This document shows positions 3,039 through 55,161 of a stretch of 64,000 nt of DNA, piece by piece. The notes below the pieces were generated by a model. It was given only the letters and a program-made list of their open reading frames with translations, did not search any database and was not told the origin of the DNA. Position 1 is the first letter of the stretch; the number at the start of each line of letters is the position of its first letter. The stretch lies in assembly GCA_016219925.1 (NCBI GenBank), contig JACRJU010000013.1:102566-166565 (forward strand), read 5' to 3'. The position numbers were made by a program, and so were the translations under genes. The stretch is from Candidatus Uhrbacteria bacterium. GTDB taxonomy: Bacteria > Patescibacteriota > Patescibacteriia > UBA9934 > GWF2-40-263.

Positions 3039-4454
3039 ATGTCTAAAATTCCTTCCTACGATGTTTTGGTTATTGGTTCTGGCGCCGCTGGGTTTTCTGC
3101 GGTTGAAGCCGCTCGAGCGCAGGAAGCGAGTGTCTGTTTGGTCGAAGCTGGACGACTTGGTGGAGAATGTCCCAACGATGCCTGCGTTCCATCCAAGGCT
3201 TTGCTCAAAGCTGCACAAGTGTATCGCCAAGCCCAACATGCCCGCGAGTTTGGTGTGCAACTTGGCCAGGTTTCTTTTGATTTTTCCGAAATAATGCGCT
3301 ACCGCCAGTCCGTAGTGAACGCGATCACTGGGGATGGCGAGCGCGGCGCGCGTTATGAAAAAATTCTCAAATCCATGAAGGTGGAGGTGAAATTTGGAAA
3401 AGCATCTTTTGTGGATGACCACATCGTTGAGGTCGGAGCATCTCAGGTTCAGGCTCGATCGGTGGTGATTGCCACAGGTTCTGTGGATTTTATTCCGCCC
3501 ATCCCCGGACTCGACAGCGTAAAATTTTTGGGAAGCGCGGATGCGATGAAGCTCAAACGTCAGCCTAAAGCGATTGCGATTATCGGAGGCGGACCTGTGG
3601 GCTGTGAACTTGCAACCTTTTTTGCCTTGATCGGCACGCGCGTCGTCTTGTTGCAAAGCGCTCCCATGGTTTTACATCGCGAGGACGAAGAGATTTCAAA
3701 ACTCGCCCGCCAAGCTCTTGAAGGATTGAAAATTGAATTGTTCACGAATGCAAGCGTGGTCGAAGTTGTTAATGGCGGGGGAGGAGTGTATGGTCTCAAA
3801 GTTGATGTGGCGGGGAATCGATCTATGCACGCGGTTGAACAGGTGCTTGTGGCAACAGGCAAGCGCGCGTGTACAAAAGGCTTGGCCGTTGAGGAAGCAG
3901 GCATCCGTTTGGGAAAACGCGGGGAGATTGAAACCAACAAAGAACAAAAGACGAACGTGCCGAATATTTTTGCCGCGGGCGATGTCGCTGGCGGAATGAT
4001 GTTTACTCACACGGCACATCACGAAGGCTGGGTGGCTGGCACAAACGCCGCGCTTGTGGCCAAAAAGAAACGCTCTACGCGACTCAAGAGTGATGAACGG
4101 GTGGTGCCGCGTTGTACGTTTGTTGTGCCTGAAGTGGCCTCTGTTGGTCTCACCCAAGCCGAAGCACAACAGGCGTTCAAACGTGTTTTGGTTGGTCGCG
4201 CTGATGTTTCTTCCCTAGGTCGATCGGTAACAGACAACGCGCGTTTTGGATTATTGAAAATCGTGGCTCATCCCAAAACACGCAAAGTGTTGGGCGGTCA
4301 CATGATGGGGGAGCGCGCGGGCGAAGTGATTCATGAGATCGCGCTTGCGATTCATCTGGGGGCCACCATCGATAAGCTCGCAACGCTCATCCATGCGTAT
4401 CCAACGTACAGTGAAGCCGTCGTTTCTGCGGCGGCAACGGCACAATTCGAATAG
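3039..4454 (+). CDS. FAD-dependent pyridine nucleotide-disulfide oxidoreductase (dihydrolipoyl dehydrogenase / mercuric-reductase-like class I)
   Basis: ATG at 3039 begins with MSKIPSYDVLVIGSGAAG (FAD Rossmann fold). Redox-active disulfide GGECPNDACVPSK. Second Rossmann fold AIIGGGPVGCE. C-terminal dimerisation motif HAYPTYSEA. Confidence 0.7.
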   Translation: MSKIPSYDVLVIGSGAAGFSAVEAARAQEASVCLVEAGRLGGECPNDACVPSKALLKAAQVYRQAQHAREFGVQLGQVSFDFSEIMRYRQSVVNAITGDGERGARYEKILKSMKVEVKFGKASFVDDHIVEVGASQVQARSVVIATGSVDFIPPIPGLDSVKFLGSADAMKLKRQPKAIAIIGGGPVGCELATFFALIGTRVVLLQSAPMVLHREDEEISKLARQALEGLKIELFTNASVVEVVNGGGGVYGLKVDVAGNRSMHAVEQVLVATGKRACTKGLAVEEAGIRLGKRGEIETNKEQKTNVPNIFAAGDVAGGMMFTHTAHHEGWVAGTNAALVAKKKRSTRLKSDERVVPRCTFVVPEVASVGLTQAEAQQAFKRVLVGRADVSSLGRSVTDNARFGLLKIVAHPKTRKVLGGHMMGERAGEVIHEIALAIHLGATIDKLATLIHAYPTYSEAVVSAAATAQFE

Positions 4455-4496
4455 GTCGCGTGATCCCTCGGTCTTCTTACTTCTTGTTTCTCCCCT

Positions 4497-5066
4497 ATGT
4501 CTTCCGGCGAAATCGTTTTTGACATCGAAACCCAGTCAGCCGCCCTTAGTGATCTTCGGGCCCTGCGTATGAGCGTCATTGGATGCTATTTTTATGATAC
4601 TGATTCGTTTGAAGTCTTTGAAGAAAATGAATTGCCACAGCTTTGGCGACGATTCGAGCATGCCAGCCGATTGATTGGTTACAATAGCAAAGGGTTTGAT
4701 TTGCCTGTCATGAACAACTACTACAGCGGGGATTTTCTCAAGTTTAATAATCTCGATATTTTGGAAGAAATCCATAAAGCGCTCGGGTTTCGCTTGAAAC
4801 TGGATGATGTGGCCGGCGCGACCATCGGTGCGCATAAATCTGGCCATGGGTTGCAGGCCGTAGAGTGGTGGAAACAGGGAGAGATCAACAAAATTAAAGA
4901 GTATTGTTTGCAGGACGTGAAGATCACGCGGGACGTGTATGAATATGGCCTCAAATATGGTGCGCTGGCTTACGAAGATCGGTTGTCGGGTCGCAAGGCG
5001 ATCCCGGTCAATTTTCGTAAAACCGAGCCCGTTCCGATGAAAATCAACCTAACGATGGGGCTTTGA
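4497..5066 (+). CDS. predicted 3'-5' exonuclease, RNase H-like / DEDD superfamily
   Basis: N-terminal IVFDIETQS matches the Exo I acidic motif. Conserved Y..GFD..., C.QD and R.VYEY blocks typical of small DnaQ/PolB-exo-like proteins. Confidence 0.5.
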   Translation: MSSGEIVFDIETQSAALSDLRALRMSVIGCYFYDTDSFEVFEENELPQLWRRFEHASRLIGYNSKGFDLPVMNNYYSGDFLKFNNLDILEEIHKALGFRLKLDDVAGATIGAHKSGHGLQAVEWWKQGEINKIKEYCLQDVKITRDVYEYGLKYGALAYEDRLSGRKAIPVNFRKTEPVPMKINLTMGL

Positions 5067-5085
5067 GGTGTGGATAAACAGGTCT

Positions 5086-5139
5086 TTGACGCACAAGATA
5101 TAGTGGTCTATCATAAAAGGTGACCACAATATGTAGTGG
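5086..5139 (+). promoter_or_regulatory. sigma70-type promoter (TTGACG-17-TATCAT) overlapped by two tandem NrdR-box-like 16-bp palindromes
   Basis: TTGACG at 5086-5091, a 17-nt spacer, TATCAT at 5109-5114. Box 1 GCACAAGATATAGTGG (5091-5106) and box 2 CCACAATATGTAGTGG (5124-5139) each match the published NrdR consensus acaCwAtATaTwGtgt at 13/16 positions. They lie 33 bp apart, upstream of a ribonucleotide reductase gene. Confidence 0.5.
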
Positions 5140-5380
5140 GGAAAGGCGTCGTGGCCAGAGACCCTTCCAGGAGTGAATAGGAATGATCCCAACGGGATTG
5201 TTTTTAGTCTGCTTGTGTTGCTTACAAAATGGGCGAGCTATCGGCTGACGCTGCGGTCGTCACCTCACCGTACATCGGTGTACGGCTCGGTGCCGTCCTC
5301 GCGTTGTAGCGATATCTCATCCCATTTTGAAACCAACACGTCTGGTTTTGAGCTGATGTCTGCGTGCTGTCAATCTTCTT

Positions 5381-5449
5381 GCGGTTTGAGCTATGTCGGA
5401 GGGAACAGCGACGAGGAGTCCGCTGGCCCGGAGACATAGCATAAACCGC
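5381..5449 (+). repeat. structured hairpin element copy 1 (17-bp closing stem with 2 mismatches, 36-nt conserved core) inside the nrdJ 5' leader
   Basis: gcggtttgagctatgtc / gacatagcataaaccgc form the closing stem around core GGAGGGAACAGCGACGAGGAGTCCGCTGGCCCGGAG. The core matches copy 2 at 32/36 positions. Confidence 0.55.
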
Positions 5450-5495
5450 AAAACAATACCGCCAACAGTTACTTTACTCCTCTGTTACTTCCTTT

Positions 5496-8400
5496 ATGTC
5501 CGATCAACCGATCTCTAAAGTTCAAGTTTCCTCCTTGGACACGACCAATGTGGCCGACGCGGTTTGGCAATTTATGACCTCCGTAAAATCGTTACGGAAG
5601 CGCGATGGATCAGAACAAGATTTTGATGCTCGCAAACTCACACACTCCATTCGAGCCGCGCTTTTGGCCGCCGGCATGAAGCCTTCGCTTTGCGAGAAGA
5701 TCACCTCGCAAGTCATTTCTCGTCTTACACATCAGTTTGATGGCCACAGTGTGCCGACATTTGCCGATGTGCGCGAAGCCGTTGAGGTGACGCTCATCGA
5801 TAACAATCTGATTCATGTTGCAAAGAAGTACTTGTCTTTTCGCGGATCGGAATCTCGCGCGGCGCAAACCGAGCGTTATGGAAAGGGGATTACTGTTGAT
5901 CGTTTTTTCACCAAAGAAGGCGTTCATCCTTATGACGAGATCGAATGGGAAAAACGTGACGCGGTTATTTCAGGATCCAAAGGGGAGGTTGTATTTGAAC
6001 AGAAAGGAGTTGAAGTTCCAAAATCGTGGACGCAGACTGCGACGAATATCGTTGTTTCAAAATATTTTTTTGGGACGATTGGCAAAGATGATCGCGAATA
6101 TTCGGTAAAACAGTTGGTTCACCGCGTCGCATCCACCATCGCCAACTGGGGTCGCAAGGACGGCTATTTCCAAACCGGAGAAGATGCGCAACATTTCGAA
6201 GACGAGCTTCATCATATTTTGGTCAATCAAATGGCCGCTTTTAACTCACCGGTCTGGTTTAACGTCGGGACGACTCGTCCCCCACAGTGTAGCGCCTGCT
6301 TTATCAATTCTGTTGAAGATGACATGCGTTCTATTTTGAATCTGTGCGTGACGGAAGGTACGTTGTTTAAGGGAGGCTCTGGGACAGGATCCAATCTCTC
6401 TAAACTCCGCTCCAAGCACGAATACTTAAGCGGAAGCAATGGCAAAGCCTCCGGTCCGATTTCGTTTATGAAGGGTCTTGATGCTTTTGCAGGAGTGATT
6501 AAAAGCGGAGGCAAAACGCGTCGAGCGGCCAAAATGGTGATTTTGGATATTACGCATCCCGATATTGACGATTTCATCATGTGTAAGGTGGAGGAAGAAA
6601 AGAAAGCCTGGGCGCTGATGGACGCCGGATACGATGGTTCGATTGACGGTCCGGCTTATGCCTCCATCTATTTTCAAAACGCCAACAACTCGGTGCGCGT
6701 GACGGATGATTTTATGCGCGCGTACGAGACCGACGACTCGTGGGCGACTCGCGCCGTCACAACCGGCGAACCGGTGAAAACCTGGAAAGCGCGCGAGCTC
6801 ATGGATATGATGGCCGATGCGGCATGGCAGTGCGGCGATCCGGGCATTCAATATGATACGACGATCAACGACTGGCACACCTGTTCGAACACGGATCGCA
6901 TTTACGCGTCCAATCCGTGCAGTGAGTACATGTTCCTCAATGACAGCGCTTGCAACCTCGCTTCGCTTAACCTCATGAAGTTTCGCAAGCTCGTCGGGAG
7001 CGAAATGGTGTTTGATGTGGAGTCTTTCAAAAAAGCCAATGAGGTCATCATCACCGCCATGGAAATTATCGTCGGCAATTCGGTCTATCCAACCCCGGCG
7101 ATCGAACAGAACAGCTATGACTACCGCCCACTGGGCATCGGCTACGCCAACCTCGGTGCTTTGCTTATGAGCCGCGGGCTTCCGTATGATTCGGATGCCG
7201 GTCGCAATCTCGCGGCGGCCATCACGTCTTTGCAAAGTGGTCACTGTTATTATCAATCGGCTAAGATTGCGGAAAAAGTCGGACCGTTTGCTGGCTACAA
7301 AGCCAATGAAGATCCTTGTTTGCGTGTGATGCGCAAACATCGCGATGCCTCTTATGAAGTGGCCACCGATGGAGTGCCGGCGGATTTGCTTAGCGCGTCT
7401 CGCGTGGCTTGGGACAATGTCGTTGAGCAGGCGAGCCAGTATGGTTTGCGCAACGCACAAATTAGCGTGATCGCTCCGACAGGAACCATTTCTTTCCTCA
7501 TGGATTGTGATACGACTGGCGTCGAACCGGATATCGCACTTGTGAAATACAAATGGTTGGTTGGGGGTGGGATGTTCAAGATTATCAACAACACAGTTCC
7601 TGAAGTTCTGACGCGTTTGGGATACACCCAAACGGAGCGCGATGATATTTTGGCCTTCATTGAAAAAAACGACACGATTGAAGGAGCTCCGCATGTGAAG
7701 ATCGAACATTTGCCGGTGTTTGATTGTGCGTTCAAGGCGGCCAATGGCACGCGTACGATTCAGTACATGGGTCATGTACGCATGATGGCCGCGGTTCAAC
7801 CGTTTGTTTCCGGCGCCATTTCCAAAACCGTAAACATGCCCCATGAAGCGACCGCGCAAGATATTGCCGACGTTTATGTGCAAGGATGGAAGCTCGGGCT
7901 CAAAGCGATCGCCATTTATCGTGATGGCTCCAAGCGCCAGCAGGCGTTGACGACATCCAAAGAAAGCGACGCGAAGAAACAAAATGAATCTTCTATCGTT
8001 GCGAAAAGCGAACCGAAGGCGAGTGGCGAGGCCATCTCAACGGTTACGACCCAGACTGATCAACGTCTCCGCCGACACCGCCTTTCCGATGAACGACGCG
8101 CCATCACGCACAAGTTTAAGGTCGGGCCGCATGAAGGATATATCACCGTCGGTCTCTATGATGATGGAGCGCCGGGAGAAATTTTTGTCACCATGTCCAA
8201 AGAGGGATCCGTCATTAGCGGACTGATGGATAGTTTTGCAACAGCGATTTCTATCGGCTTGCAATACGGTGTTCCCCTGGAAGTCTTGGTCAATAAATTC
8301 GTTCACATGCGATTTGAACCTTCCGGATATACCAACAACCCCCAAATCCGCATTGCCAAATCCATCACGGATTACATTTTCCGTTGGCTTGCCATCAAGT

Positions 8401-8669
8401 TTTTGCCGCGGGAGTCGCAGATGACTTTGGGCATTAACACGGTGGACGAATCGCTCGACCAGCCTGTGAAAACCGCGGACGAAAAAGTGGAATTCGCGAC
8501 TCCGACCGTTCCACAACCGAAATTATTTGAACGGACACAGAGTGATCACATCCAAACTTTCGATAATCAGTCAGATGCGCCAGCCTGCGACACGTGCGGT
8601 TCGATCATGGTGCGCAATGCCGCCTGTTATAAATGTTTGAATTGTGGGGGAACGAGCGGGTGTAGCTAA
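5496..8669 (+). CDS. nrdJ: adenosylcobalamin-dependent ribonucleoside-diphosphate reductase (class II) with N-terminal ATP-cone and C-terminal Cys4 zinc ribbon
   Basis: 1057 aa. ATP-cone-like N-terminus. NSPVWFNVGT and SNPCSEYMF active-site blocks of class I/II RNR. C-terminal CDTCGS...CYKCLNCGG zinc ribbon. Confidence 0.85.
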   Translation: MSDQPISKVQVSSLDTTNVADAVWQFMTSVKSLRKRDGSEQDFDARKLTHSIRAALLAAGMKPSLCEKITSQVISRLTHQFDGHSVPTFADVREAVEVTLIDNNLIHVAKKYLSFRGSESRAAQTERYGKGITVDRFFTKEGVHPYDEIEWEKRDAVISGSKGEVVFEQKGVEVPKSWTQTATNIVVSKYFFGTIGKDDREYSVKQLVHRVASTIANWGRKDGYFQTGEDAQHFEDELHHILVNQMAAFNSPVWFNVGTTRPPQCSACFINSVEDDMRSILNLCVTEGTLFKGGSGTGSNLSKLRSKHEYLSGSNGKASGPISFMKGLDAFAGVIKSGGKTRRAAKMVILDITHPDIDDFIMCKVEEEKKAWALMDAGYDGSIDGPAYASIYFQNANNSVRVTDDFMRAYETDDSWATRAVTTGEPVKTWKARELMDMMADAAWQCGDPGIQYDTTINDWHTCSNTDRIYASNPCSEYMFLNDSACNLASLNLMKFRKLVGSEMVFDVESFKKANEVIITAMEIIVGNSVYPTPAIEQNSYDYRPLGIGYANLGALLMSRGLPYDSDAGRNLAAAITSLQSGHCYYQSAKIAEKVGPFAGYKANEDPCLRVMRKHRDASYEVATDGVPADLLSASRVAWDNVVEQASQYGLRNAQISVIAPTGTISFLMDCDTTGVEPDIALVKYKWLVGGGMFKIINNTVPEVLTRLGYTQTERDDILAFIEKNDTIEGAPHVKIEHLPVFDCAFKAANGTRTIQYMGHVRMMAAVQPFVSGAISKTVNMPHEATAQDIADVYVQGWKLGLKAIAIYRDGSKRQQALTTSKESDAKKQNESSIVAKSEPKASGEAISTVTTQTDQRLRRHRLSDERRAITHKFKVGPHEGYITVGLYDDGAPGEIFVTMSKEGSVISGLMDSFATAISIGLQYGVPLEVLVNKFVHMRFEPSGYTNNPQIRIAKSITDYIFRWLAIKFLPRESQMTLGINTVDESLDQPVKTADEKVEFATPTVPQPKLFERTQSDHIQTFDNQSDAPACDTCGSIMVRNAACYKCLNCGGTSGCS

Positions 8670-8756: not shown

Positions 8757-8833
8757 GCGATGACGATCTATCCTGCCGGAGGGAACAACGGCGACGAGTC
8801 CGTTGGCCCGGAGGCAGGATAGATCGTCATCGC
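8757..8833 (+). repeat. structured hairpin element copy 2 (perfect 21-bp closing stem, 35-nt conserved core) immediately 3' of nrdJ
   Basis: gcgatgacgatctatcctgcc ... ggcaggatagatcgtcatcgc are perfect reverse complements. The core GGAGGGAACAACGGCGACGAGTCCGTTGGCCCGGAG matches copy 1. Confidence 0.55.
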
Positions 8834-8869: not shown

Positions 8870-8898
8870 AAGAGGGCTCATCATGTCCCTCTTTTTTG
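8870..8898 (+). terminator. rho-independent terminator after nrdJ
   Basis: aagaggg-ctcatcatgt-ccctct stem-loop followed by TTTTT. Confidence 0.55.
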
Positions 8899-8925
8899 TT
8901 TTTGTGATAAAATGAGCTCGAACCT

Positions 8926-9426
8926 ATGGTTAACTTTCCGTTTAAGCGTCAAGAGGAAGTTCCGGCACAACCTCCGGAGGTTTTGCATTCTCTCGCACCG
9001 GAGGTTTCTTTGGAGCAGTCCAATGAACAGCCTGGGCAATCCCCTGAACAATCTCTCGATAAAAAACCAGAAGCCACAGAACCAACACGCCCAGCGGATT
9101 TGCCAACCACCACGCCCTTCAGAGCATCTCCGTCCGTCTCTGCTGATCCGATGATAAAGCGCATCGAATCTATTTTGGAAGAAGATATGACGGATTTATA
9201 TTTAAACCTGTCACCGAAGGATCAAGTCGTTTTTAAACAGAAAGGCGAGGAGACCCTGACGAAAATACGTGTGCTCATGCAAAAGACGAAAGTAAATGCG
9301 AAGAAAATTTTTGAGCTCATTCGTGCATGGCTCCGGCTGATCCCGGGCGTCAATCGGTTTTTTTTGGAACAGGAAGCCAAAATTAAGACAGATAAAATTC
9401 TGCTTTCCAAAGATCGCGAATCATGA
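8926..9426 (+). CDS. hypothetical protein, Pro/Glu/Ser-rich low-complexity N-terminus; first gene of a three-gene operon
   Basis: ATG at 8926. Its stop overlaps the next start (ATGA at 9423). No motif recognised. Confidence 0.4.
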   Translation: MVNFPFKRQEEVPAQPPEVLHSLAPEVSLEQSNEQPGQSPEQSLDKKPEATEPTRPADLPTTTPFRASPSVSADPMIKRIESILEEDMTDLYLNLSPKDQVVFKQKGEETLTKIRVLMQKTKVNAKKIFELIRAWLRLIPGVNRFFLEQEAKIKTDKILLSKDRES

Positions 9427-11972
9427 TCACTTCTCTGTTGTACCAAACGGACGTGCAAGAACCACTGATCAATGCCATCAATCTGACGGACTTCTTTTGG
9501 TTGGCGTGGGTCATTTTGGCCGTGGCCGCACTCGTTGGGGGACTTTTTGTTTTGCGAGGGATCTTGCGACGCGTTTTTGAAGCGCGCAATGCGACGTTCA
9601 ATAGCAAGACGCTTTTAATCACCCTTCCGAAATTCCGTCGTGAAGAGGAGAGCGAGCGCGGACCTCAAAAAGAACAGGTGCAAGAAACCATTTCCGCGGC
9701 CGAAGCGATTTTCGCTTCCATTGGCGGACTCAAAGCTGAACGAGGAATTAAAGCGTGGCTGTTGGGACGATCCGATGAGCTGGCATTTGAAATTGTCTCC
9801 GAGCACAAGCTCATCAGATTTTATGTCACGATTCCCAAACACATGCAGAGCTTTGTCGAGCAACAAATTTCTGCGGCCTATCCTGATGCTTTTTTGGAAG
9901 AAGTCGAGGACTTTAATATTTTCACCCCGACAGGCACGATTCTTGGAAGTCACTTGGGTTTTTCACGTCCGAATGCGTTTCCGATCAAAACCTATCGCAA
10001 ACTCGATCAAGATCCGCTCAATTCCATCACGAATGTTCTTTCAAAAATTCCGGACGGCGATGCGGCAGCGTTTCAGTTTGTGGTGCGCTCGTCGTATAAG
10101 AAATGGCGATCGTATGGAGTGGATTTGGCCAAGCGCATGCAACAAGGCGTGAGTTTGGAAGATGCGTTACGCGGGAAGAAAAAGGGAGATAAAGGAACGC
10201 TTGAAAAGTGGGGGATTTCGAGCGGCTCGCAACAGAAAGAGCCAGAGCAGGAGTATCGCTTGTCGCCGCAAGAAGAAGAAATTGTGAAAGGGCTTCAAGA
10301 GAAGGCGAGCAAGGCCGGAATGGATGTCAGTCTTCGGCTGATTTCGTGTTCCCAAAACGCCGCGACCGCAGAGTCGATTTTGCAAAACATGCTCAACGCG
10401 TTTTCGCAGTACAATGTGTACGAATATGGCAACTCGTTTGTGAAGCAAATCCCGCGATCGAAAAAACGTTTGATCTCGCAGTTTATCTATCGAGTTGTTT
10501 CTGAAAAGAACAAAATTGTTATGAACGCTGAGGAGATGGCGAGTCTCTGGCACTTGCCGCTTCCATGGACAGAAACGCCAAACATCAAATGGCTCGGCGC
10601 GCGTTCCGCCGCCGCTCCGGCTTCGATTCCGGGTCCGGACGATGGCGATATTGAGTTGGGATACAACGTGTATCGGGGCATCAAAACACCGGTGTGGATG
10701 AAGGCCAAAGATCGCACCCGCCACATGTACATCATTGGGAAGTCCGGTTCGGGAAAATCTCAAATGATCGCAAACCTTGCCATTCAGGACATTCGCGCAG
10801 GCCATGGTGTTGCTGTGGTCGAGCCGCATGGAGATTTGATTGAGCATATTTTGGGAAACATTCCGCGCGAGCGTATTGATGATGTGGTCGTGTTTAACCC
10901 GTCGGATCTCGAGCGACCTATGGGACTCAATATGCTGGAGTCCAAAGACGAAACAATGAAAGATTTTGCGGTTCAAGAGATGATCGCCATTTTTTATAAA
11001 TTGTTTCCGCCGGAAATGATCGGCCCGATGTTTGAGCACAACATGCGAAACGTGATGCTCACGCTCATGGCGGATCCCAATCAACCCGGAACGATCGCCG
11101 AGATTCCACGCATGTTTTCAGACGAGGCGTTTCAAAAACAGTGGGTGGCCAAAGTGAAAGACCCGGTGGTGCGTTCGTTTTGGGAAAACGAAATGGCCAA
11201 GACGAGCGACTTCCATAAATCGGAGATGTTGGGGTATCTCATCTCAAAGGTTGGACGGTTTGTAGAAAATGAAATGATGAGAAACATCATCGGCCAACAG
11301 CACAATTCGTTTGACTTCCGGGAGATCATGGACAAGAAGAAAATTTTGCTTGTCAATCTGTCCAAAGGAAAAACCGGTGATGTCAACGCGGAGCTTTTGG
11401 GACTCATCATCGTGTCGAAACTTCAGATGGCGGCGCTCACTCGCGCGGACATTCCGGAAGATCAACGCCACGACTTCTATTTGTACATCGACGAGTTCCA
11501 AAACTTCATTACCGATTCGATCGCAACTATTTTGTCAGAGGCGCGCAAGTATCGCTTGAATCTCATCATCGCTCATCAGTATATCGGCCAGCTTGTAAAA
11601 AATAATGATACGAAGATTAAGGAAGCGGTGTTCGGAAACGTTGGAACAACTTTTGTGGCGCGTATCGGTCCCGAAGATGTCGAGACACTCGAGAAGATGT
11701 ATTCGCCAGATTTTTCGGGATATGACCTGATCAACTCGGATAAATTTACGTGGTACGTGAAGATGATCGTCGATAATGCTCAACAAAAGCCGTTTACTCT
11801 CAAGTTCAATACGCCACCTTCAGGAGATCGGGAACTCGCCGAAGGGATCAAAGAACTTTCTCGCCTGAAATTCGGACATGACCGACGATTGGTCGAAGCG
11901 GATATTCTTGAACGCACACAACTTGGAGGCCCAACGCGCATGCAACAACCGCCAGCCATTGGAGAAAAATAA
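9423..11972 (+). CDS. large P-loop ATPase of the VirB4/VirD4 (TraC/TraG-type) type IV secretion / DNA-translocation ATPase superfamily, with N-terminal TM helix
   Basis: 849 aa. TM helix at about residues 23-45. Walker A IIGKSGSGKSQ. Walker B-like YLYIDEFQNF followed by RKYRLNLIIAHQ, matching the RKxG...TQ arrangement of T4SS ATPases. Confidence 0.55.
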   Translation: MITSLLYQTDVQEPLINAINLTDFFWLAWVILAVAALVGGLFVLRGILRRVFEARNATFNSKTLLITLPKFRREEESERGPQKEQVQETISAAEAIFASIGGLKAERGIKAWLLGRSDELAFEIVSEHKLIRFYVTIPKHMQSFVEQQISAAYPDAFLEEVEDFNIFTPTGTILGSHLGFSRPNAFPIKTYRKLDQDPLNSITNVLSKIPDGDAAAFQFVVRSSYKKWRSYGVDLAKRMQQGVSLEDALRGKKKGDKGTLEKWGISSGSQQKEPEQEYRLSPQEEEIVKGLQEKASKAGMDVSLRLISCSQNAATAESILQNMLNAFSQYNVYEYGNSFVKQIPRSKKRLISQFIYRVVSEKNKIVMNAEEMASLWHLPLPWTETPNIKWLGARSAAAPASIPGPDDGDIELGYNVYRGIKTPVWMKAKDRTRHMYIIGKSGSGKSQMIANLAIQDIRAGHGVAVVEPHGDLIEHILGNIPRERIDDVVVFNPSDLERPMGLNMLESKDETMKDFAVQEMIAIFYKLFPPEMIGPMFEHNMRNVMLTLMADPNQPGTIAEIPRMFSDEAFQKQWVAKVKDPVVRSFWENEMAKTSDFHKSEMLGYLISKVGRFVENEMMRNIIGQQHNSFDFREIMDKKKILLVNLSKGKTGDVNAELLGLIIVSKLQMAALTRADIPEDQRHDFYLYIDEFQNFITDSIATILSEARKYRLNLIIAHQYIGQLVKNNDTKIKEAVFGNVGTTFVARIGPEDVETLEKMYSPDFSGYDLINSDKFTWYVKMIVDNAQQKPFTLKFNTPPSGDRELAEGIKELSRLKFGHDRRLVEADILERTQLGGPTRMQQPPAIGEK

Positions 11973-14183: not shown

Positions 14184-14257
14184 TGGTTCCCGGACAGGGA
14201 TTCGAACCCCGATTAAGTGGACCAGAACCACTCGTCCTGCCGTTAGACGATCCGGGA
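14184..14257 (-). tRNA. tRNA-Gln (anticodon CTG), CCA encoded
   Basis: Reverse complement is TCCCGGATCGTCTAACGGCAGGACGAGTGGTTCTGGTCCACTTAATCGGGGTTCGAATCCCTGTCCGGGAACCA. It has a 7-bp acceptor stem, a D arm with GG, the anticodon loop TTCTGGT and a T-loop TTCGAAT. Confidence 0.85.
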
Positions 14258-31660: not shown

Positions 31661-31770
31661 GATGTCACCTCGTGTTTGGACCCAAGAATGGGTGATGCGA
31701 CGTTAGCAGAGTGAGACCTGTGCGTCAAGACATTTCGCTTTGATGAGCGTTTTTGATACGATGAAACCAT

Positions 31771-32552: not shown

Positions 32553-32601
32553 TCCAAGAGGCATGCTGCAGTTTGGAATTTTGTGATACACTATTTCCAC
32601 T

Positions 32602-34550: not shown

Positions 34551-34569
34551 ATGATAGAATAGGGGCGCT

Positions 34570-37328
<2,759 letters not shown>

Positions 37329-39843: not shown

Positions 39844-39877
39844 CCTGCCGGAGGGAACAACGGCAACGAGTTCGTCG
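39844..39877 (+). repeat. structured hairpin element copy 3 (5' two-thirds only, no closing stem) downstream of lgt
   Basis: The 21-nt stretch cctgccggagggaacaacggc is identical to copy 2 (8771-8791). The element then diverges and lacks the 3' GGCCCGGAG segment. Confidence 0.45.
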
Positions 39878-41895: not shown

Positions 41896-41972
41896 ACGGT
41901 TCGTCCCTCACGTCTCGGGCGCCTCAGCTGTGACTGGCGCCCGCTTTTTATTAGTGATACGATTTTTTTCGT

Positions 41973-44808: not shown

Positions 44809-44896
44809 GGAGAGGTCGCATAGAGGTCGATTGCGCGCGCTTGGAAAGCGCGTATACCGCAAGGTATCGAGGGTTCGAATCCCTCCCTCTCCGCCA
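44809..44896 (+). tRNA. tRNA-Ser (anticodon GGA), class II with long variable arm, CCA encoded
   Basis: GGAGAGGTCGCATAGAGGTCGATTGCGCGCGCTTGGAAAGCGCGTATACCGCAAGGTATCGAGGGTTCGAATCCCTCCCTCTCCGCCA. The acceptor stem is 7 bp, the anticodon loop is TTGGAAA, the variable arm is 16 nt and the T-loop is TTCGAAT. Confidence 0.85.
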
Positions 44897-45783: not shown

Positions 45784-45904
45784 GTCCTACCTCATGACCT
45801 CTATTGAGAGGGTGACCGTCCACCCTAGCTCAAAAATAGGAAATTGTCAACTGATCGTGTTCAGTATTCTTTGCGCTTGGGGGTGAATAAGGTAGGCTGT
45901 GATC

Positions 45905-47701
45905 ATGTTAGATCCGAAAGATGAAATCAAACAAAAAATTGATATCGTCGAACTCATCGGCGAATATTTGACGCTCAAACCCGCCGGGACACACGCGTTT
46001 AAAGCCGTTTGTCCGTTTCATGCCGAGAAAACGCCGTCGCTTCATGTCTCATCCGATCGTCAGATTTGGCACTGCTTTGGATGCGGGGAAGGAGGTGATT
46101 GTTTAAGTTTCGTCATGAAGATGGAGGGAATGGATTTTGCCGAGGCGCTGATGCACCTCGGCCAGAAGGTGGGGGTGGAGGTGAAGCGTTTTGCGACGCC
46201 GCAGGGCAATCAGAATCTGCGGCTGTCCGAAATCAACGAACTGGCCGCTCGGTATTATCAAAAAGTTCTTGAGCAATCATCGGGGGCTCAAGAAGCACGT
46301 GCGTATGTGCAGAAGCGTGGGATCACCTCGGAACTCTCAACGCGTTTTGGACTCGGATATGCGATGGACCAATGGGACGGCCTCTGTATTTTTTTGCTCA
46401 AGCGCGGGTATGCCCAACAGGAAATTGTGGCCGCGGGTTTAGGCCAGACCAAACGATCGGGTTCTGGGTTGATTGATCGCTTTCGCGGACGACTGATGAT
46501 TCCTCTACGCGACCAGCATGGGAAGACCGTGGGCTTCACCGGTCGATTGATCGCGTCCGCTGTAGGTCCCGACGCTTCCGCTTCGCCAAAATATCTCAAC
46601 TCCCCTGAAACGCCGATCTATCACAAAGGTCGTCTGTTGTATGGATTAGATTTGGCCAAGCGAGCGAGTAAAGAGGCGAAGGCAATCATTATTGTCGAAG
46701 GTAATTTGGATGTGGTGGCTTCGCACAAGGCCGGCGTCGAGCATGTGGTTGCGAGTTCAGGCACCGCGCTCACGCGCGATCAATTTGAACTCCTCTCTCG
46801 TTACACGCAAACGGTCATTTTTTGTTTTGATCAAGACGCGGCGGGCCTCACCGCCGCCAAACGAGGCGTCTCGATCGCGCACGCGCTTCAGTTTGATATC
46901 CGAGCGATCTTGCTTCCAGACGGGGCTAAAGATCCAGACGATCTCGTGCAAAAGGATCCTATGGCTTGGCGACATCTCTGCGAGACATCCATTCCGTTTA
47001 TGGCGTATCTCGTCAGTCGAACCATCAAAGGAAAAAATCTTACGAGCATTGATGACAAGCGTGAGATTTCAAAAGAGTTACTCCCAGCGATTGCAGAGAT
47101 GAGTGACCCTGTGGAGCAAGAACACTGGCTTGGCGAAGTCAGCAGACTGTTGAGCACGGATGAAAGCGCGCTCCGGCGAGCGATCAGACCGTCTCCCATA
47201 GAAAAAAAATCTGCCCCGCTTTCACCCATCCATACCGGACGTCTCAATAAAGAGGGGCAGGCGTTTGCGCTTTTGTTTGGACTTGCCTTAAGCGATGAGG
47301 ATCACGCTCGAACATTTTTTGAAAATCCTCCGTCCTTGCCACGAGAGACGTCCGGTTTGTCCGAGCTTTACACCAAAGCGGAAATCCTTTATCATTCCGG
47401 CAGTAACGCACCCCATCACACATTTTTTTCGCGGCTTCGCTCTGCTCTTGAAGCGCAACAACGAGATGACCTGATTGGCTCTCTCGACACGATCGCCCTT
47501 CTGGCAGAGACAACCTTCGAGGCTATGGAGTCCAAAGAGGTGCCACAATTTATTGAGACCCTGCGCGACGTGCTTGCACGCCACTTTTCGCGAGAGCGAC
47601 GCCGGGCATTGGCCGAGCACATTCGCGATGCGGAACGCTCGGGCGACCAAGAAGCCGTTCGTCGGCTTCTGGAGGAATTAAATTTTGAAAAAGATCCATA
47701 A
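45905..47701 (+). CDS. dnaG: DNA primase
   Basis: CPFHAEKTPSLHV...WHCFGCGEGGD zinc-binding domain, the RNA polymerase core, and a TOPRIM with EG..D (IIVEGNLDV) and DQDAAG. AAGGTAGG lies 9 nt before the ATG at 45905; the ORF-track start at 45899 is GTG. Confidence 0.85.
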   Translation: MLDPKDEIKQKIDIVELIGEYLTLKPAGTHAFKAVCPFHAEKTPSLHVSSDRQIWHCFGCGEGGDCLSFVMKMEGMDFAEALMHLGQKVGVEVKRFATPQGNQNLRLSEINELAARYYQKVLEQSSGAQEARAYVQKRGITSELSTRFGLGYAMDQWDGLCIFLLKRGYAQQEIVAAGLGQTKRSGSGLIDRFRGRLMIPLRDQHGKTVGFTGRLIASAVGPDASASPKYLNSPETPIYHKGRLLYGLDLAKRASKEAKAIIIVEGNLDVVASHKAGVEHVVASSGTALTRDQFELLSRYTQTVIFCFDQDAAGLTAAKRGVSIAHALQFDIRAILLPDGAKDPDDLVQKDPMAWRHLCETSIPFMAYLVSRTIKGKNLTSIDDKREISKELLPAIAEMSDPVEQEHWLGEVSRLLSTDESALRRAIRPSPIEKKSAPLSPIHTGRLNKEGQAFALLFGLALSDEDHARTFFENPPSLPRETSGLSELYTKAEILYHSGSNAPHHTFFSRLRSALEAQQRDDLIGSLDTIALLAETTFEAMESKEVPQFIETLRDVLARHFSRERRRALAEHIRDAERSGDQEAVRRLLEELNFEKDP

Positions 47702-47740
47702 CTCTCTCACGCGCATGACGCTGAGACGGTGACGTTTCCT

Positions 47741-48970
47741 ATGCAGAAAAAAAAGGGTGTGAAGAAGCCGGTCAAGAAGCCGGCAAAAAAGATGGGGGTA
47801 AAAAAATTGACGATTCGTTCAAAGCCAAAAGTCGCTCCGGCTCCGGCTAAAACTCCTGCAGTGCGCTATAAGCGCGCCGAACCTCCCTCGCGGGAGGTGC
47901 TCGATCGGTTGATGGAAAAAGGCAAGCAACGCGGATACATCACGGAGAACGAGGTGTTGTTTACGTTTAGCGATGTAGAAGATTACGTGGAGATGTTTGA
48001 AGAATTTTTGGATCGCATGGAGCGGATGGGAGTGCATTTTGTTGAACTCAAGGAAGGCATTCTCGGACACGCGGCGGACCGTGACGAAGTGTATGACAAG
48101 ATCCGTCTCACGCACGAAAAACAAAAAGGGATTTCGGTTCCTGAACTTACGCAAGATTCCATCCAAATGTATCTGCGCGAGATTGGAAAGATCCCCTTGT
48201 TGAATGGCGAACAAGAAGTGGCGCTGGCCAAGCGTAAGGAGCGTAATGAAAAAGAAGCCGAGCGACGTCTCATCGAAGCCAACCTTCGATTGGTTGTATC
48301 CATTGCCAAGAAGTTTGTGGGTAAGCAGATGTCTCTTCTCGATCTGATTCAAGAAGGCAACATCGGGTTGTTTCGCGCGGTAAAAAAGTTTGAGTATCGC
48401 AAAGGATACAAGTTTTCAACGTATGCGACGTGGTGGATTCGCCAAGCCATTACCCGCGCGCTTGCCGACCAGTCGCGCACGATCCGCATTCCGGTTCACA
48501 TGGTTGAGACGATCAACCGTTTCCAACAGATCGAACGCCAACTGATTCAAGACCTCGGCCGCGAACCGCTTCCTGAAGAGATCGCGGCGGAAATGGGGGA
48601 GAGTGTAGCTAAAGTGCGGCACATTCGGAAGATTTCGCAAGAAACGGTTTCCCTTGAAACGTCCGTTGGAGATGATGACGAAGATTCTAAGCTTGAAGAT
48701 TTTCTTGAAGACGTCAAGACGATTTCGCCGGATCGTCAGGCCGCGCGTGAATTGCTCAAAGATTATGTCACCAAAGCGATGGAAGGACTTACCCCGCGCG
48801 AACAGAAGATTTTGGAAATGCGGTTTGGCTTAACCGACGGCGTGTCGCACACGCTCGAAGAAGTGGGCCGCGAGTTCGATGTGACGCGCGAGCGCATCCG
48901 TCAAATCGAAGCCAAGGCGCTTGAAAAAATCCAAGCAAATCCGCTCATCGAGAAATTAAGAGATTACTAG
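47741..48970 (+). CDS. rpoD: RNA polymerase primary sigma factor (sigma-70)
   Basis: [11 protein letters not shown] (region 1.2), [15 protein letters not shown]...[18 protein letters not shown] (region 2), [14 protein letters not shown], and regions 3 and 4. Sits in a dnaG-rpoD operon. ATG at 47741; the ORF-track start at 47729 is GTG. Confidence 0.85.
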
Positions 48971-51190: not shown

Positions 51191-51537
51191 AGGATCTTTA
51201 TTTTAACCTCTTGACAGCCTCTTGCAAGGCCGTTCTAGGGTAGGTATCATAGTTCCACTAAATCATAACGTATTTGCGTATACGTATGTTGCTTCCATAC
51301 AGTTTCGTCATGGACGATGAAGACTGGGGATCTGACGACGACGAGGACAAAGAGGGTATGGGTTCCGACGTCGAAGAGAGTGATGACGCTGATGACGATG
51401 GTGACGACGCCGATGGTGGGGAAGAGTGGTAGATATAAAACAGACCTTTCATAGGTCTGTTTTTCTATTGACGAAAGGAGGTATTTCATGTACGATAGCG
51501 ACGCCGCAACGGGATAAGGCTAAAGACTTTTGGAGGA

Positions 51538-52290
51538 ATGATGAAATTCGTGCGGATCAGGTGGTTCGTCAAGACGTGGCTCATGAACCGACGGTTCAAG
51601 TCACTCGATGGCCTTTCCAGGCGCGTCGCGCGCTGGCTCACCGACCACTGGACGGCCAACCAGATCACGCTTCTGGGTGTCGCGCTGTGTGTGCCCATGA
51701 CGGCGTTGTTCTGGGCAGACCTGTACTTTCCCGCTTCCGTTCTGCTGACGTTGAGCCTGCTCACCGACTTCGCCGACGGGGCCCTCGCGCATTACCAGCA
51801 AGGTCTGCGCCCGCCCATGTCGCTCGAAGAAGAGCGACGCCTTACGCTCAAACAGCGCATCGACTACCGCGGGGTCACGCATCTGGGCAAAGCCTTCGAC
51901 CCCGTTGTCGACAAGGTTCGGTTCTTCTGCGTCGTCTACGCGCTCGGCTGGGGCATCGTCAACACCGGCCTCGTTATCGCCCTTACGGTCGTGGCGGTGA
52001 CCCTCACGGTCATCCGGCCGATCAAGCGTTGGATGAAGATGGGCGATGCCAGGTCCAACCGCTTTGGCAAGTTCAAGATCTGGGCGGAGATCGCGGCGCT
52101 CGCGCTTCTGATCATCCATCCGACCAGTACAGTGCTTCTTCACCTCACCTTCGCTGTGGCTCTGGCGTTCGGATGCTTCTCGCTTCTGGGACACCTGCTT
52201 GCCGCCTACGTGGCCCTGCGCACGCGTCGCGCCTCGCGCCGCCGTTCGCGCGCTTCTCGCCGTGTACAGCCCGCGACGGTCGACTCCTGA
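51538..52290 (+). CDS. CDP-alcohol phosphatidyltransferase family protein
   Basis: D..DG..AR...G.....D...D pattern (DFADGALAHYQQG...GKAFDPVVDK) within 5-6 TM helices. GGAGG lies 4 nt before the ATG. About 64% GC. Confidence 0.65.
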   Translation: MMKFVRIRWFVKTWLMNRRFKSLDGLSRRVARWLTDHWTANQITLLGVALCVPMTALFWADLYFPASVLLTLSLLTDFADGALAHYQQGLRPPMSLEEERRLTLKQRIDYRGVTHLGKAFDPVVDKVRFFCVVYALGWGIVNTGLVIALTVVAVTLTVIRPIKRWMKMGDARSNRFGKFKIWAEIAALALLIIHPTSTVLLHLTFAVALAFGCFSLLGHLLAAYVALRTRRASRRRSRASRRVQPATVDS

Positions 52291-52317
52291 CTCCTCCCAG
52301 GGGTCTTTTTTTGACTC

Positions 52318-52346
52318 TTGTCAGAGGGGAGAAGGGTTGTTATAAT
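52318..52346 (+). promoter_or_regulatory. sigma70 promoter TTGTCA-17-TATAAT driving tRNA-Asn
   Basis: TTGTCA 52318-52323, TATAAT 52341-52346. The tRNA begins about 80 nt downstream, after two small leader hairpins. Confidence 0.5.
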
Positions 52347-52427
52347 CCTGGCGGTCCCCTGTCATTGCGAAGGAGGTTCAAGCGATTGAAGCCATTTCCG
52401 CACTGTGGAAATCGTCAGACAATTTAT

Positions 52428-52502
52428 TCCGGGGTAGCTCAGCGGCAGAGCGGCTCGCTGTTAACGAGATGGTCGTGGGTTCGATCCCCACCCCCGGAGC
52501 CA
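52428..52502 (+). tRNA. tRNA-Asn (anticodon GTT), CCA encoded
   Basis: TCCGGGGTAGCTCAGCGGCAGAGCGGCTCGCTGTTAACGAGATGGTCGTGGGTTCGATCCCCACCCCCGGAGCCA. The anticodon loop is CTGTTAA and the T-loop TTCGATC. Lies inside a spurious long ORF (51426..52715). Confidence 0.85.
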
Positions 52503-52582
52503 AGCAGGTCGGTCAGTCGAAAGACTGGTCGTTTTGTTTTGTATGGTAAACTTATTCTCAAAATGTCTATAGACAAACTGAT

Positions 52583-52978
52583 ATGCCTCCAGATCTTCAA
52601 CTCCATCATTGCGCCAAGCAGATTACACGAGGCCGTTTGGATTTCGTGCTTCGTCTGTTTGAGCACCTCGGCTGTCAAATTTTTTATCGCGAAGAGGGCG
52701 CGACCTGGGCGATGATCGGACAGGCCGGTTTACGCTTCAGCATTCAGTTTATTGAATGCGACCGAACGCCGATTCCCATTGAACTCAAACGAGAAAATCA
52801 TGTCGCCTTTATTTCATCAGATCCGCAACAAGAGATGGCGAGGATTGAGCAGTGGATTAAAGCTGAAGGCAAAACGATTGTTACGGGTTCATGGTCAACA
52901 AAGGAACACTATTTCGATTGCCCCGACGTATTCGTTGATTTTGTGGTTGAAATTATGCATCGATCCATTGTCGAATAG
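52583..52978 (+). CDS. hypothetical protein, possibly VOC (glyoxalase/bleomycin-resistance-like) fold
   Basis: 131 aa with an alternating beta/alpha pattern and conserved His/Glu positions (HHCAK, HVAF, E..H). Weak assignment. Confidence 0.35.
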   Translation: MPPDLQLHHCAKQITRGRLDFVLRLFEHLGCQIFYREEGATWAMIGQAGLRFSIQFIECDRTPIPIELKRENHVAFISSDPQQEMARIEQWIKAEGKTIVTGSWSTKEHYFDCPDVFVDFVVEIMHRSIVE

Positions 52979-54877: not shown

Positions 54878-54963
54878 CATGGCACGCAAAACGACTCAAC
54901 GTGGAGATCCAACAAATTTCCCACAAGAGGCGAAATTTGTGGATAATTCACCTAACGCAACCT

Positions 54964-55161
54964 ATGAACGGTACAATCAAGCGATTGACGGACAAGGGGT
55001 TCGGCTTCATCGCCCAGGACGGCGCAGAGAAAGACTTGTTTTTTCACTCGTCCGCTCTCGTCGGTGCAAGCTTCGACGAACTCCGTGAAGGCGATGCGGT
55101 GACGTTTGACACCGAAGACTCTGACAAGGGTCCTCGTGCCACCAACGTCAAGCGCGCCTAA
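54964..55161 (+). CDS. cold-shock protein (CspA family)
   Basis: MNGTIKRLTDKGFGFIAQDGAEKDLFFHSSAL carries the RNP1 (KGFGFI) and RNP2 (FFHSSAL) motifs. Confidence 0.85.
   Translation: MNGTIKRLTDKGFGFIAQDGAEKDLFFHSSALVGASFDELREGDAVTFDTEDSDKGPRATNVKRA

What the first reader, a model, noticed from the sequence alone, without database searches (positions are those of the whole stretch)
5086..5139. nrdJ promoter carries two NrdR-box-like palindromes in the classic overlapping-promoter arrangement
GCACAAGATATAGTGG (5091-5106) and CCACAATATGTAGTGG (5124-5139) each match the NrdR consensus acaCwAtATaTwGtgt at 13/16 positions. They are direct copies of one another. Box 1 lies between a TTGACG -35 and a TATCAT -10, with an exact 17-nt spacer. 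Box 2 covers the predicted transcription start. This is the architecture described for NrdR-repressed RNR operons. It implies an nrdR gene elsewhere in the genome and places the transcription start about 375 nt upstream of the nrdJ ATG.
Basis: partly seen in the sequence, partly recalled or inferred. Interest (0 to 1): 0.5.

Follow-up and report, generated by a model that had tools for sequence, protein, structure and literature searches.

The report
NrdR operator on nrdJ promoter

Summary
GCACAAGATATAGTGG (5091-5106) and CCACAATATGTAGTGG (5124-5139) are the only two matches to the NrdR consensus in the 64 kb window. Box 1 fills the 17-nt spacer between TTGACG and TATCAT. Box 2 starts 9 nt after the -10. 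The gene at 5496-8669 is a class II RNR with an ATP-cone, from a Candidatus Uhrbacteria MAG.

Tandem consensus-like boxes 32-33 bp apart occur in 41 of 54 related loci, always just upstream of nrdJ and nowhere else in 791 kb. All six positions that the literature calls critical are present in both window boxes. The 17-bp linker lies within the experimentally functional range.

No nrdR lies in the window, and I could not locate it in this genome. A relative with the same gene order carries nrdR and a boxed nrdJ on one contig.

Three features were missed. A perfect DnaA box (5069-5077) is conserved in most relatives. A conserved terminator-like hairpin with a U-tract sits in the leader (5178-5208). 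Two inserted palindromes make this leader unusually long.

Verdict: real, ordinary, and a new member of a known kind.

The parts
5069..5077 (-). Perfect DnaA box (TTATCCACA on the minus strand; TGTGGATAA as read on plus). It sits 8 nt upstream of the -35 and is centred about -48 from the predicted start.
   Evidence: There are only 2 exact copies in the window, against 0.24 expected. An exact box lies within 45 nt upstream of NrdR box 1 in 34 of 43 unique related loci, 23 in reverse and 11 in forward orientation. The background is 14 boxes in 712 kb. It forms a conserved block in alignment A2.
5086..5091 (+). -35 hexamer TTGACG
   Evidence: The promoter scan gives 10/12 with a 17-nt spacer. 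TTGAC is conserved at this position in the close clade.
5091..5106 (.). NrdR box 1, GCACAAGATATAGTGG, occupying the -35/-10 spacer
   Evidence: It has 3 mismatches to the published consensus and scores 23.4 bits on a PWM built from relatives only. C4, A6, A8, T9, T11 and G13 are all present. It is conserved in relatives.
5109..5114 (+). -10 hexamer TATCAT; the predicted transcription start is about 5120-5122
   Evidence: Found by the promoter scan. It aligns with TAAAAT, TACAAT or TATAAT in relatives. The start position is inferred only.
5124..5139 (.). NrdR box 2, CCACAATATGTAGTGG, at about +3 to +19
   Evidence: It has 3 mismatches to the consensus and scores 24.8 bits on the PWM; the next best site in the window scores 12.2. 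All six conserved positions are present. Box starts are 33 bp apart, giving a 17-bp linker.
5140..5177 (+). Conserved 5' leader segment: a GGAA(A)GG...CCCTTCC helix followed by AGGAGTGAA
   Evidence: GTGGGGAAG and CCTTCCAGGAGT recur in close relatives. The helix is predicted for the window RNA but was not recovered by RNAalifold.
5178..5208 (+). Terminator-like hairpin (AUAGGAAUGAUCCC-AAC-GGGAUUGUUUUUA) with a U-tract, within the nrdJ leader
   Evidence: The predicted fold is -12 kcal/mol. A hairpin plus T-run lies 20-90 nt after box 2 in most relatives. The consensus stem has 9 pairs, 3 of them with compensatory changes. It is also present where the upstream gene differs.
5215..5339 (+). Long imperfect palindrome hp1, inserted in the leader
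   Evidence: Inverted repeat found; fold of -57.5 kcal/mol, z -4.4. It is shared only with L004 at the same place: the apical ~50 nt are nearly identical, while the outer stems differ yet both pair. It is absent from the nearest relatives L173 and L174.
5379..5451 (+). Palindromic repeat element hp2 (core GGAGGGAAC...GGCCCGGAG at 5398-5433), inserted in the leader
   Evidence: Fold z -7.9. A second copy lies at 8757-8833, a partial copy at 39844-39871, and a copy in L004. It is absent from the nearest relatives.
5496..8669 (+). nrdJ, a class II (B12-dependent) ribonucleotide reductase of 1057 aa with an N-terminal ATP-cone
   Evidence: Pfam hits: PF03477, PF08471, PF02867 (E 8.5e-140) and PF12637. 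It is 100% identical to MBI5370120.1, Candidatus Uhrbacteria bacterium.
8870..8904 (+). Probable nrdJ terminator: AAGAGGG-10 nt loop-CCCTCTT followed by a T-run. The next gene has its own extended -10 (TGATAAAAT at 8905-8913).
   Evidence: Read directly from the sequence. The scan tool did not list it because the loop exceeds 8 nt. The extended -10 was found.

Best explanation
This is the operator-promoter of a monocistronic nrdJ gene in a Candidatus Uhrbacteria (Patescibacteria/CPR) bacterium. Two 16-bp NrdR boxes lie one on each side of the -10 element. Box 1 fills the -35/-10 spacer and box 2 lies just downstream of the start site. Their centres are 33 bp apart, about three helical turns.

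By analogy with the solved Streptomyces NrdR-DNA complex, the inferred mechanism is as follows. An NrdR tetramer loaded with dATP plus ATP binds both boxes through its zinc ribbons. It bends the DNA sharply and excludes RNA polymerase, which shuts off nrdJ when dNTPs accumulate. ATP-only NrdR forms higher oligomers that do not bind, so nrdJ is transcribed.

Two further conserved elements probably act on the same promoter. A consensus DnaA box sits just upstream of the -35, which would couple expression to replication initiation as at E. coli nrdAB. An intrinsic-terminator-like hairpin with a U-tract lies about 60-90 nt into the leader and may attenuate transcription.

What is shown: the sequence elements, their statistical specificity, their conservation, and the presence of NrdR in the clade. 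What is inferred: binding, repression, the transcription start, and the roles of DnaA and the hairpin.
For: The boxes are the only two consensus matches in the 64 kb window, and a sigma-70-type promoter overlaps them. The window encodes an RpoD-type sigma factor. The downstream gene is a class II RNR.

All 30 genome-derived Uhrbacteria-type loci show tandem boxes at 32 or 33 bp. C2, A3, C4, A6, T11, G13 and G15 are invariant or nearly so. The metagenome loci and the nearest relatives show the same pattern.

Alignment A2 shows conserved blocks exactly at the DnaA box, -35, box 1, -10 and box 2, with variable sequence between them. Tandem pairs defined by the literature consensus alone occur in 41/54 loci. 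They lie only upstream of nrdJ and nowhere else in 791 kb. A PWM scan gave the same result over 778 kb.

From the literature: boxes are 16 bp, with six conserved positions (PMC13584703). Spacers of 15-17 bp bind and repress well (PMC12051234). A tetramer binds two boxes about three turns apart, with D15 and R17 providing specificity (PMC9110341).

Uhrbacteria NrdR proteins keep D15, R17 and R26-R29. In one relative, nrdR and a boxed nrdJ lie 83 kb apart on a single 668-kb contig with the same local gene order.
Against: No nrdR gene lies in the window, and I could not identify one in this particular genome. There are no transcription-start, binding or expression data. The 17-bp linker is one longer than the commonest 15-16. 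The PWM was trained on these same promoters, so only the literature-consensus control is independent. The related loci share ancestry, so counts of loci overstate the number of independent observations. A terminator-like hairpin between promoter and gene means that NrdR may not be the only control on nrdJ, or even the dominant one.
Confidence: 0.9

Rival explanations
1. Relic operator. The boxes are genuine NrdR-type sites, but this genome has lost nrdR, so they no longer regulate anything.
For: No nrdR lies in the 64 kb window or in the extra 10 kb upstream in L001. CPR genomes are reduced. I did not find the same-genome NrdR among the listed homologues.
Against: Both boxes are intact at all critical positions and score as well as the best sites in relatives. 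Unselected sites would decay. NrdR is widespread in Uhrbacteria. A syntenic relative has nrdR 83 kb from nrdJ, a distance that would fall outside this window.
Confidence: 0.05
2. The palindromes are bound by a different regulator, or they resemble NrdR boxes only by chance.
For: No binding data exist. Short AT-rich palindromes flanked by CAC/GTG could in principle serve other dimeric regulators.
Against: The chance expectation is 0.17 single hits per window, yet two adjacent hits at operator spacing were found. The pair is conserved only upstream of the RNR gene across 791 kb. The consensus, box length, spacing and promoter overlap all match NrdR sites.
Confidence: 0.02
3. Most nrdJ control is exerted after initiation by the conserved leader hairpin with its U-tract, through attenuation or premature termination. 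Under this view NrdR is only a secondary brake.
For: The hairpin plus T-run is conserved in position in most relatives, and also where the upstream gene differs. Several other genes in this window (at least 8) have near-leaderless extended -10 promoters, so a long structured nrdJ leader stands out.
Against: I found no conserved alternative (antiterminator) pairing. Covariation is modest, with 3 of 9 pairs compensatory. In L172 the hairpin sits 9 nt from the ATG with a poor U-tract. Where the exonuclease gene lies upstream, the hairpin could simply be that gene's terminator. There is no Rfam match. This view adds to NrdR control and does not exclude it.
Confidence: 0.25
4. nrdJ is transcribed mainly from a second promoter closer to the ATG, or by read-through from the upstream exonuclease gene. 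In that case the boxed promoter is not the main start.
For: The leader is about 375 nt and contains a terminator-like hairpin. The exonuclease gene ends only 3 nt before the DnaA box, with no terminator in between.
Against: No sigma-70-type match lies in 5140-5495, and I saw no clear extended -10 there when reading the sequence. In relatives the same boxed promoter lies 30-270 nt from the ATG, with no other conserved promoter-like block. About 200 nt of the window's extra length comes from two inserted palindromes.
Confidence: 0.08

Closest known systems
NrdR operators of bacterial RNR operons, for example Streptomyces coelicolor nrdRJ (cryo-EM structure 7P3F; PMC9110341)
   Same: There are two partially palindromic 16-bp boxes with C4, A6, A8, T9, T11 and G13, centres about three helical turns apart, overlapping the RNA-polymerase binding site of an RNR gene. 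In this case too the gene is a class II nrdJ.
   Different: The linker is 17 bp here (16-17 across the clade) where 15-16 is most common. nrdR is not co-transcribed with this nrdJ and lies elsewhere; in relatives it follows ftsA-ftsZ. The host is a CPR/Patescibacteria bacterium in which nothing has been tested experimentally.
Escherichia coli nrdAB promoter, which has DnaA boxes upstream of the -35 as well as NrdR boxes (PMC8203912; PMC12176259)
   Same: A consensus DnaA box immediately upstream of the -35 is combined with tandem NrdR boxes on the same RNR promoter. This suggests joint control by replication-initiator status and by the dNTP/ATP ratio.
   Different: There is a single 9-mer here, whereas E. 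coli has three boxes. The regulated gene is class II, not class Ia. The box orientation flips between Uhrbacteria subclades. DnaA binding and its direction of effect (activation or repression) are unknown.
Leader intrinsic-terminator attenuators of bacterial biosynthetic operons, for example E. coli pyrBI (recalled from general knowledge, not tested here)
   Same: A GC-stem hairpin followed by a U-tract, preceded by an A-rich stretch, sits between the promoter and the coding region.
   Different: I found no leader peptide, antiterminator or ligand-binding fold. The element could be a stability element, or the terminator of the upstream gene.

Membership tests
NrdR operator (tandem NrdR boxes) | Two 16-bp partially palindromic boxes matching the consensus, with the conserved positions C4, A6, A8, T9, T11 and G13 | tested here: met
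   Both boxes match the consensus at 13/16 and carry all six positions when read against PMC13584703.
NrdR operator (tandem NrdR boxes) | A linker that places the box centres an integer number of helical turns apart (15-16 bp typical; 14-17 functional) | tested here: met
   The linker is 17 bp (5107-5123). Relatives have 16 or 17. Spacers of 15-17 bp bind and repress well for four NrdR proteins tested (PMC12051234). This is at the upper end of the usual range.
NrdR operator (tandem NrdR boxes) | Location in the promoter of a ribonucleotide reductase operon, overlapping the RNA-polymerase binding site | tested here: met
   Box 1 lies in the -35/-10 spacer and box 2 starts 9 nt after the -10. 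The downstream gene is nrdJ. The promoter is predicted, not mapped.
NrdR operator (tandem NrdR boxes) | Conservation of the sites upstream of orthologous RNR genes, and specificity for them | tested here: met
   Sites occur in 41/54 loci by the literature consensus, only upstream of nrdJ, with none elsewhere in 791 kb. The footprint is visible in alignment A2.
NrdR operator (tandem NrdR boxes) | An nrdR gene (Zn-ribbon plus ATP-cone) in the same genome | not testable with these tools
Indirect support: NrdR is common in Uhrbacteria. One syntenic relative has nrdR and a boxed nrdJ on the same contig, and its NrdR keeps the DNA-reading residues.
NrdR operator (tandem NrdR boxes) | Nucleotide-dependent binding of NrdR, and repression in vivo | not testable with these tools
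   This needs EMSA/MST and reporter or transcript measurements.
DnaA-regulated promoter | A 9-mer matching TTATCCACA next to the promoter, conserved in orthologous promoters | tested here: met
   An exact box lies at 5069-5077. Exact boxes occur in 34/43 unique loci, in both orientations, against a background of 14 per 712 kb.
DnaA-regulated promoter | DnaA binding, and an effect on transcription | not testable with these tools
   There are no data. The parallel with E. coli nrdAB comes from the literature only (PMC8203912).
Intrinsic terminator / leader attenuator | A stable stem-loop followed directly by a U-tract on the transcribed strand | tested here: met
   The hairpin at 5178-5206 folds at -12 kcal/mol and is followed by UUGUUUUUA. 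Analogous hairpins occur in most relatives.
Intrinsic terminator / leader attenuator | A conserved alternative (antiterminator) structure, or a sensor that makes termination conditional | tested here: inconclusive
   No conserved alternative pairing was seen. The upstream GGAAG/CTTCC helix was not recovered by RNAalifold. There is no Rfam family match.

The most novel reading that the evidence does not exclude
Uhrbacteria nrdJ may be under three stacked controls that are conserved across the clade. These would be a DnaA box, an NrdR operator, and a leader RNA (GUGGGGAAG...CCUUCCAGGAG followed by a terminator hairpin). The leader could be a previously undescribed conditional attenuator or riboswitch-like element that senses nucleotide or translation status. 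In a genome whose other genes are largely leaderless, it would be a CPR-specific RNA regulator of dNTP supply.
Probability: 0.12. Interest if true: 0.55.

Novelty: new member of a known kind. Interest (0 to 1): 0.3.

Why it matters
The result shows that the standard bacterial logic for controlling dNTP synthesis is retained in a reduced, uncultured CPR lineage. That logic is NrdR sensing dATP/ATP at a promoter-overlapping operator. The promoter also appears to pair it with a DnaA box, as in E. coli. This gives an anchored promoter model for Uhrbacteria, with a -35/-10 form in one subclade and an extended -10 form in another. It also gives a concrete prediction of where nrdR lies in these genomes, namely after ftsA-ftsZ. 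In itself the result is confirmatory, since large surveys have already catalogued tens of thousands of NrdR sites. The conserved leader hairpin and the palindromic insertions are the only parts that might lead somewhere new.

Tried and rejected
(1) I tried to find nrdR in the same genome. A regex for the NrdR Zn-ribbon/RRRR motif, Pfam scans of small ORFs, and tblastn with two Uhrbacteria NrdRs, FtsZ, FtsA and pyruvate kinase found nothing in the window. Two NrdR homologue searches and three cluster look-ups gave no accession near MBI5370120.1.

(2) I tested for a known RNA family in the leader. Rfam gave no hit at the gathering threshold over the whole window, and none at E<=10 for 5000-5600.

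(3) I considered a leader peptide or Shine-Dalgarno coupling. AGGAG followed by ATG/GTG just before the hairpin looked like a small upstream ORF. However, the ORF length and sequence are not conserved, and this genome rarely uses SD sequences (16 of 55 genes by a loose test). I dropped the idea.

(4) I looked for a conserved P1 helix or antiterminator in the leader. The helix is predicted for the window RNA but not supported by RNAalifold on 19 sequences.

(5) I asked whether the hairpin is merely the terminator of the upstream exonuclease gene. It persists in loci that lack that gene upstream, so this is unlikely to be its only role, though it is not excluded.

(6) ORFs 5173-5439 (+) and 5222-5437 (-) inside the leader have no Pfam match and lie within the palindromes. 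I treat them as spurious.

(7) NrdR boxes upstream of the nrdR-nrdJ operon of other Uhrbacteria (L083) are only degenerate half-sites around a TATAAT. This is not informative.

Full report
OBSERVATION. TTGACG is at 5086-5091, GCACAAGATATAGTGG at 5091-5106, TATCAT at 5109-5114, and CCACAATATGTAGTGG at 5124-5139. A search with the published consensus ACACWATATATWGTGT at up to 3 mismatches, on both strands, finds only these two sites in the 64 kb window. The expected count is 0.17, and one shuffle in 100 reached two. The promoter scan lists TTGACG/17 nt/TATCAT as the best sigma-70-type match in 4400-6000, at 10 of 12. The box starts are 33 bp apart, so the linker is 17 bp. Box 2 begins 9 nt after the -10. 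A start at the usual distance (about 5120-5122) therefore falls 2-4 nt upstream of box 2, not inside it. This is a small correction.

CONTEXT. ORF 5496-8669 encodes a 1057-aa class II ribonucleotide reductase. It has an ATP-cone, the class II N-terminal domain, the RNR barrel (E 8.5e-140) and a TSCPD domain. The protein is identical to MBI5370120.1, 'vitamin B12-dependent ribonucleotide reductase [Candidatus Uhrbacteria bacterium]', recorded on a 281,942-bp contig. The window therefore comes from a CPR/Patescibacteria MAG. The window also encodes DnaG and an RpoD-type sigma factor, so sigma-70 promoter rules are reasonable. The gene directly upstream (4497-5066) is an RNase-H-fold, PolB-exonuclease-like protein. 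This exonuclease-nrdJ pair is syntenic in most relatives.

COMPARATIVE TEST. I fetched nrdJ loci from species-representative genomes, from metagenomes, and for the two nearest relatives. In every one of the 30 genome-derived Uhrbacteria-type loci the best box pair lies upstream of nrdJ, with starts 32 bp (10 loci) or 33 bp (20 loci) apart. The clade consensus is mCACwAnATnTwGTGk. C2, A3, C4, A6, T11, G13 and G15 are invariant or nearly so.

An alignment of 24 close-clade promoters (A2) shows conserved blocks at TGTGGATAA, TTGAC, box 1, TAnAAT and box 2, with freely varying sequence between them. This is a classic phylogenetic footprint. In the more distant subclade the -35 is poor. There the -10 follows box 1 directly, so the GTGG end of box 1 supplies a TGn extended -10.

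As an independent control I used only the literature consensus, requiring <=4 mismatches per box and 30-35 bp between starts. Tandem pairs appear in 41 of 54 loci. All lie immediately upstream of nrdJ, and none lies elsewhere in 791 kb. A PWM built from relatives gives the same picture over 778 kb. In the window that PWM scores the two boxes at 23.4 and 24.8 bits, against 12.2 for the next best site.

AGREEMENT WITH WHAT IS KNOWN OF NrdR SITES. NrdR sites are two partially palindromic 16-bp boxes, usually 15-16 bp apart, overlapping the RNA-polymerase site. The highly conserved positions are C4, A6, A8, T9, T11 and G13, and C4 and G13 are critical (PMC13584703). Both window boxes have all six. 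Four NrdR proteins bind best at spacers of 15-17 bp, and a reporter is repressed at 15-17 bp (PMC12051234). The clade's 16-17-bp linker is therefore functional, though at the upper end of the range. In the cryo-EM structure a dATP/ATP-loaded tetramer binds two boxes about three turns apart, with D15 and R17 reading the bases. ATP-only NrdR forms a dodecamer that does not bind DNA (PMC9110341).

IS THERE AN NrdR? None lies in the window or in the 10 kb upstream of nrdJ held as L001 (about 5.5 kb of it beyond the window start). NrdR is, however, abundant in Patescibacteria, including Uhrbacteria. In Uhrbacteria it sits just after ftsA-ftsZ, and those genes are also absent from the window.

The strongest indirect evidence is one ENA contig of 668,191 bp. 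It carries NrdR (P0321) at about 394.3 kb. It also carries a long-type NrdJ (P0110, 68% identical to the window's) at about 478.0 kb. The local order there is the same as in the window: glycosyl hydrolase, pyridine-nucleotide-disulphide oxidoreductase, exonuclease, nrdJ. The promoter architecture is also the same: TGTGGATAA, TTGAC, CCACAACATATTGTGG, TCTAAAAT, CCACAAGATGTTGTGG. That NrdR keeps D15, R17 and R26-R29. I could not link an NrdR to the window's own genome. That prediction stays open.

(a) A perfect DnaA box, TGTGGATAA (TTATCCACA on the minus strand), lies at 5069-5077, 8 nt upstream of the -35. It is one of only two exact copies in the window, against 0.24 expected. An exact box lies within 45 nt upstream of box 1 in 34 of 43 unique loci. 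It is in reverse orientation in the close clade and forward in the distant one. The background is 14 boxes in 712 kb. Retention despite the orientation flip argues for selection. This parallels E. coli nrdAB, where DnaA boxes upstream of the promoter modulate expression. Similar control has been proposed for B. subtilis and Caulobacter (PMC8203912).

(b) The leader holds a conserved terminator-like hairpin with a U-tract at 5178-5208, predicted at -12 kcal/mol. Comparable hairpins with T-runs lie 20-90 nt after box 2 in most relatives. RNAalifold on 19 leaders predicts a 9-bp stem with 3 compensatory pairs. The hairpin persists where the upstream gene is different or divergent. It matches no Rfam family. 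I infer a possible attenuator, but I found no antiterminator.

(c) The 375-nt leader is long because of two inserted palindromes. hp1 (5215-5339) is shared only with L004. hp2 (5379-5451) belongs to a small repeat family with further copies at 8757-8833 and 39844-39871 and one in L004. The nearest relatives (84% and 82% NrdJ identity) lack both palindromes and have leaders of about 85-135 nt.

(d) Several other genes in the window (at least 8) have an extended -10 (TGATAnnnT) 9-13 nt before the ATG, and Shine-Dalgarno sequences are scarce. Any long leader therefore stands out in this genome.

MECHANISM AND CONFIDENCE. The best-supported reading (0.9) is a genuine NrdR operator overlapping the nrdJ promoter. 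It represses transcription when dATP rises relative to ATP. The enzyme's own ATP-cone adds allosteric control at the protein level; this follows from the domain content and general knowledge of ATP-cones. Roles for DnaA and for the leader hairpin are plausible additions but are inferred only.

NOVELTY. NrdR operators are textbook, and tens of thousands have been catalogued bioinformatically. This one is a new member of a known kind. The DnaA-box pairing in a CPR lineage and the conserved leader hairpin are modestly interesting leads. Interest 0.3.

Noticed in passing
window 5069-5077 (-); also L002-L032, L089-L110, L172-L174 just upstream of NrdR box 1: A perfect DnaA box (TTATCCACA) sits immediately upstream of the nrdJ -35. 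It is conserved in 34/43 unique relatives, with its orientation flipped between subclades. This parallels E. coli nrdAB.
   Followed up: yes
window 5140-5208 (+): A conserved nrdJ leader: GUGGGGAAG-like and CCUUCCAGGAG motifs, then a terminator-like hairpin with a U-tract. It is present in most relatives and has no Rfam match. It may be an attenuator.
   Followed up: partly
window 5379-5451, 8757-8833, 39844-39871; L004:91-143 (-): A repeat family with a conserved ~36-nt apical core (GGAGGGAAC...GGCCCGGAG) sitting on long perfect stems. The stems are non-homologous between the two window copies and only partly shared with L004 (fold z -7.5 to -9.1). The copies are intergenic or in a UTR. The element may be REP/MITE-like or an unknown structured RNA.
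   Followed up: partly
window 5215-5339; L004:9825-9945: A 125-nt imperfect palindrome lies in the nrdJ leader and is shared only with L004 at the same position. The apical ~50 nt are nearly identical, while the outer stems differ yet both pair. It is absent from the nearest relatives.
   Followed up: partly
window 8905-8913, 31754-31762, 32584-32592, 34552-34560, 35305-35313, 41955-41963, 55224-55232, 43464-43456 (-): Extended -10 motifs (TGATAnnnT) lie 9-13 nt before start codons, and Shine-Dalgarno sequences are scarce (16/55 genes by a loose test). This suggests mostly leaderless or near-leaderless mRNAs in this Uhrbacteria genome.
   Followed up: partly
window 4497-5066 (+) with 5496-8669: An RNase-H-fold, PolB-exonuclease-like gene (PF13482/PF10108) lies directly upstream of nrdJ in nearly all Uhrbacteria loci, down to 47% identity. 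This is a conserved exonuclease-RNR gene pair of unknown significance.
   Followed up: partly
window 54938-54946 (-): The only other exact DnaA box in the window lies just upstream of the cold-shock-domain coding region of ORF 54901-55161.
   Followed up: no
L082, L083-L088, L169-L171: In Uhrbacteria, nrdR follows ftsA-ftsZ. In one subgroup it is followed by a shorter nrdJ that lacks the ATP-cone. Upstream of that nrdR there are only degenerate NrdR half-sites around a TATAAT.
   Followed up: partly
window 9423-11972 (+); L173, L174: A TrwB/TraG-like type IV coupling protein gene lies two genes downstream of nrdJ. This arrangement is conserved in the nearest relatives.
   Followed up: no
window 45899-48970 (+); 14187-14257 (-), 44809-44893 (+), 52428-52499 (+): There is a dnaG-rpoD gene pair and three tRNA genes. 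ORF 51426-52715 overlaps the tRNA at 52428-52499, so it is probably not a real gene over its whole length.
   Followed up: no
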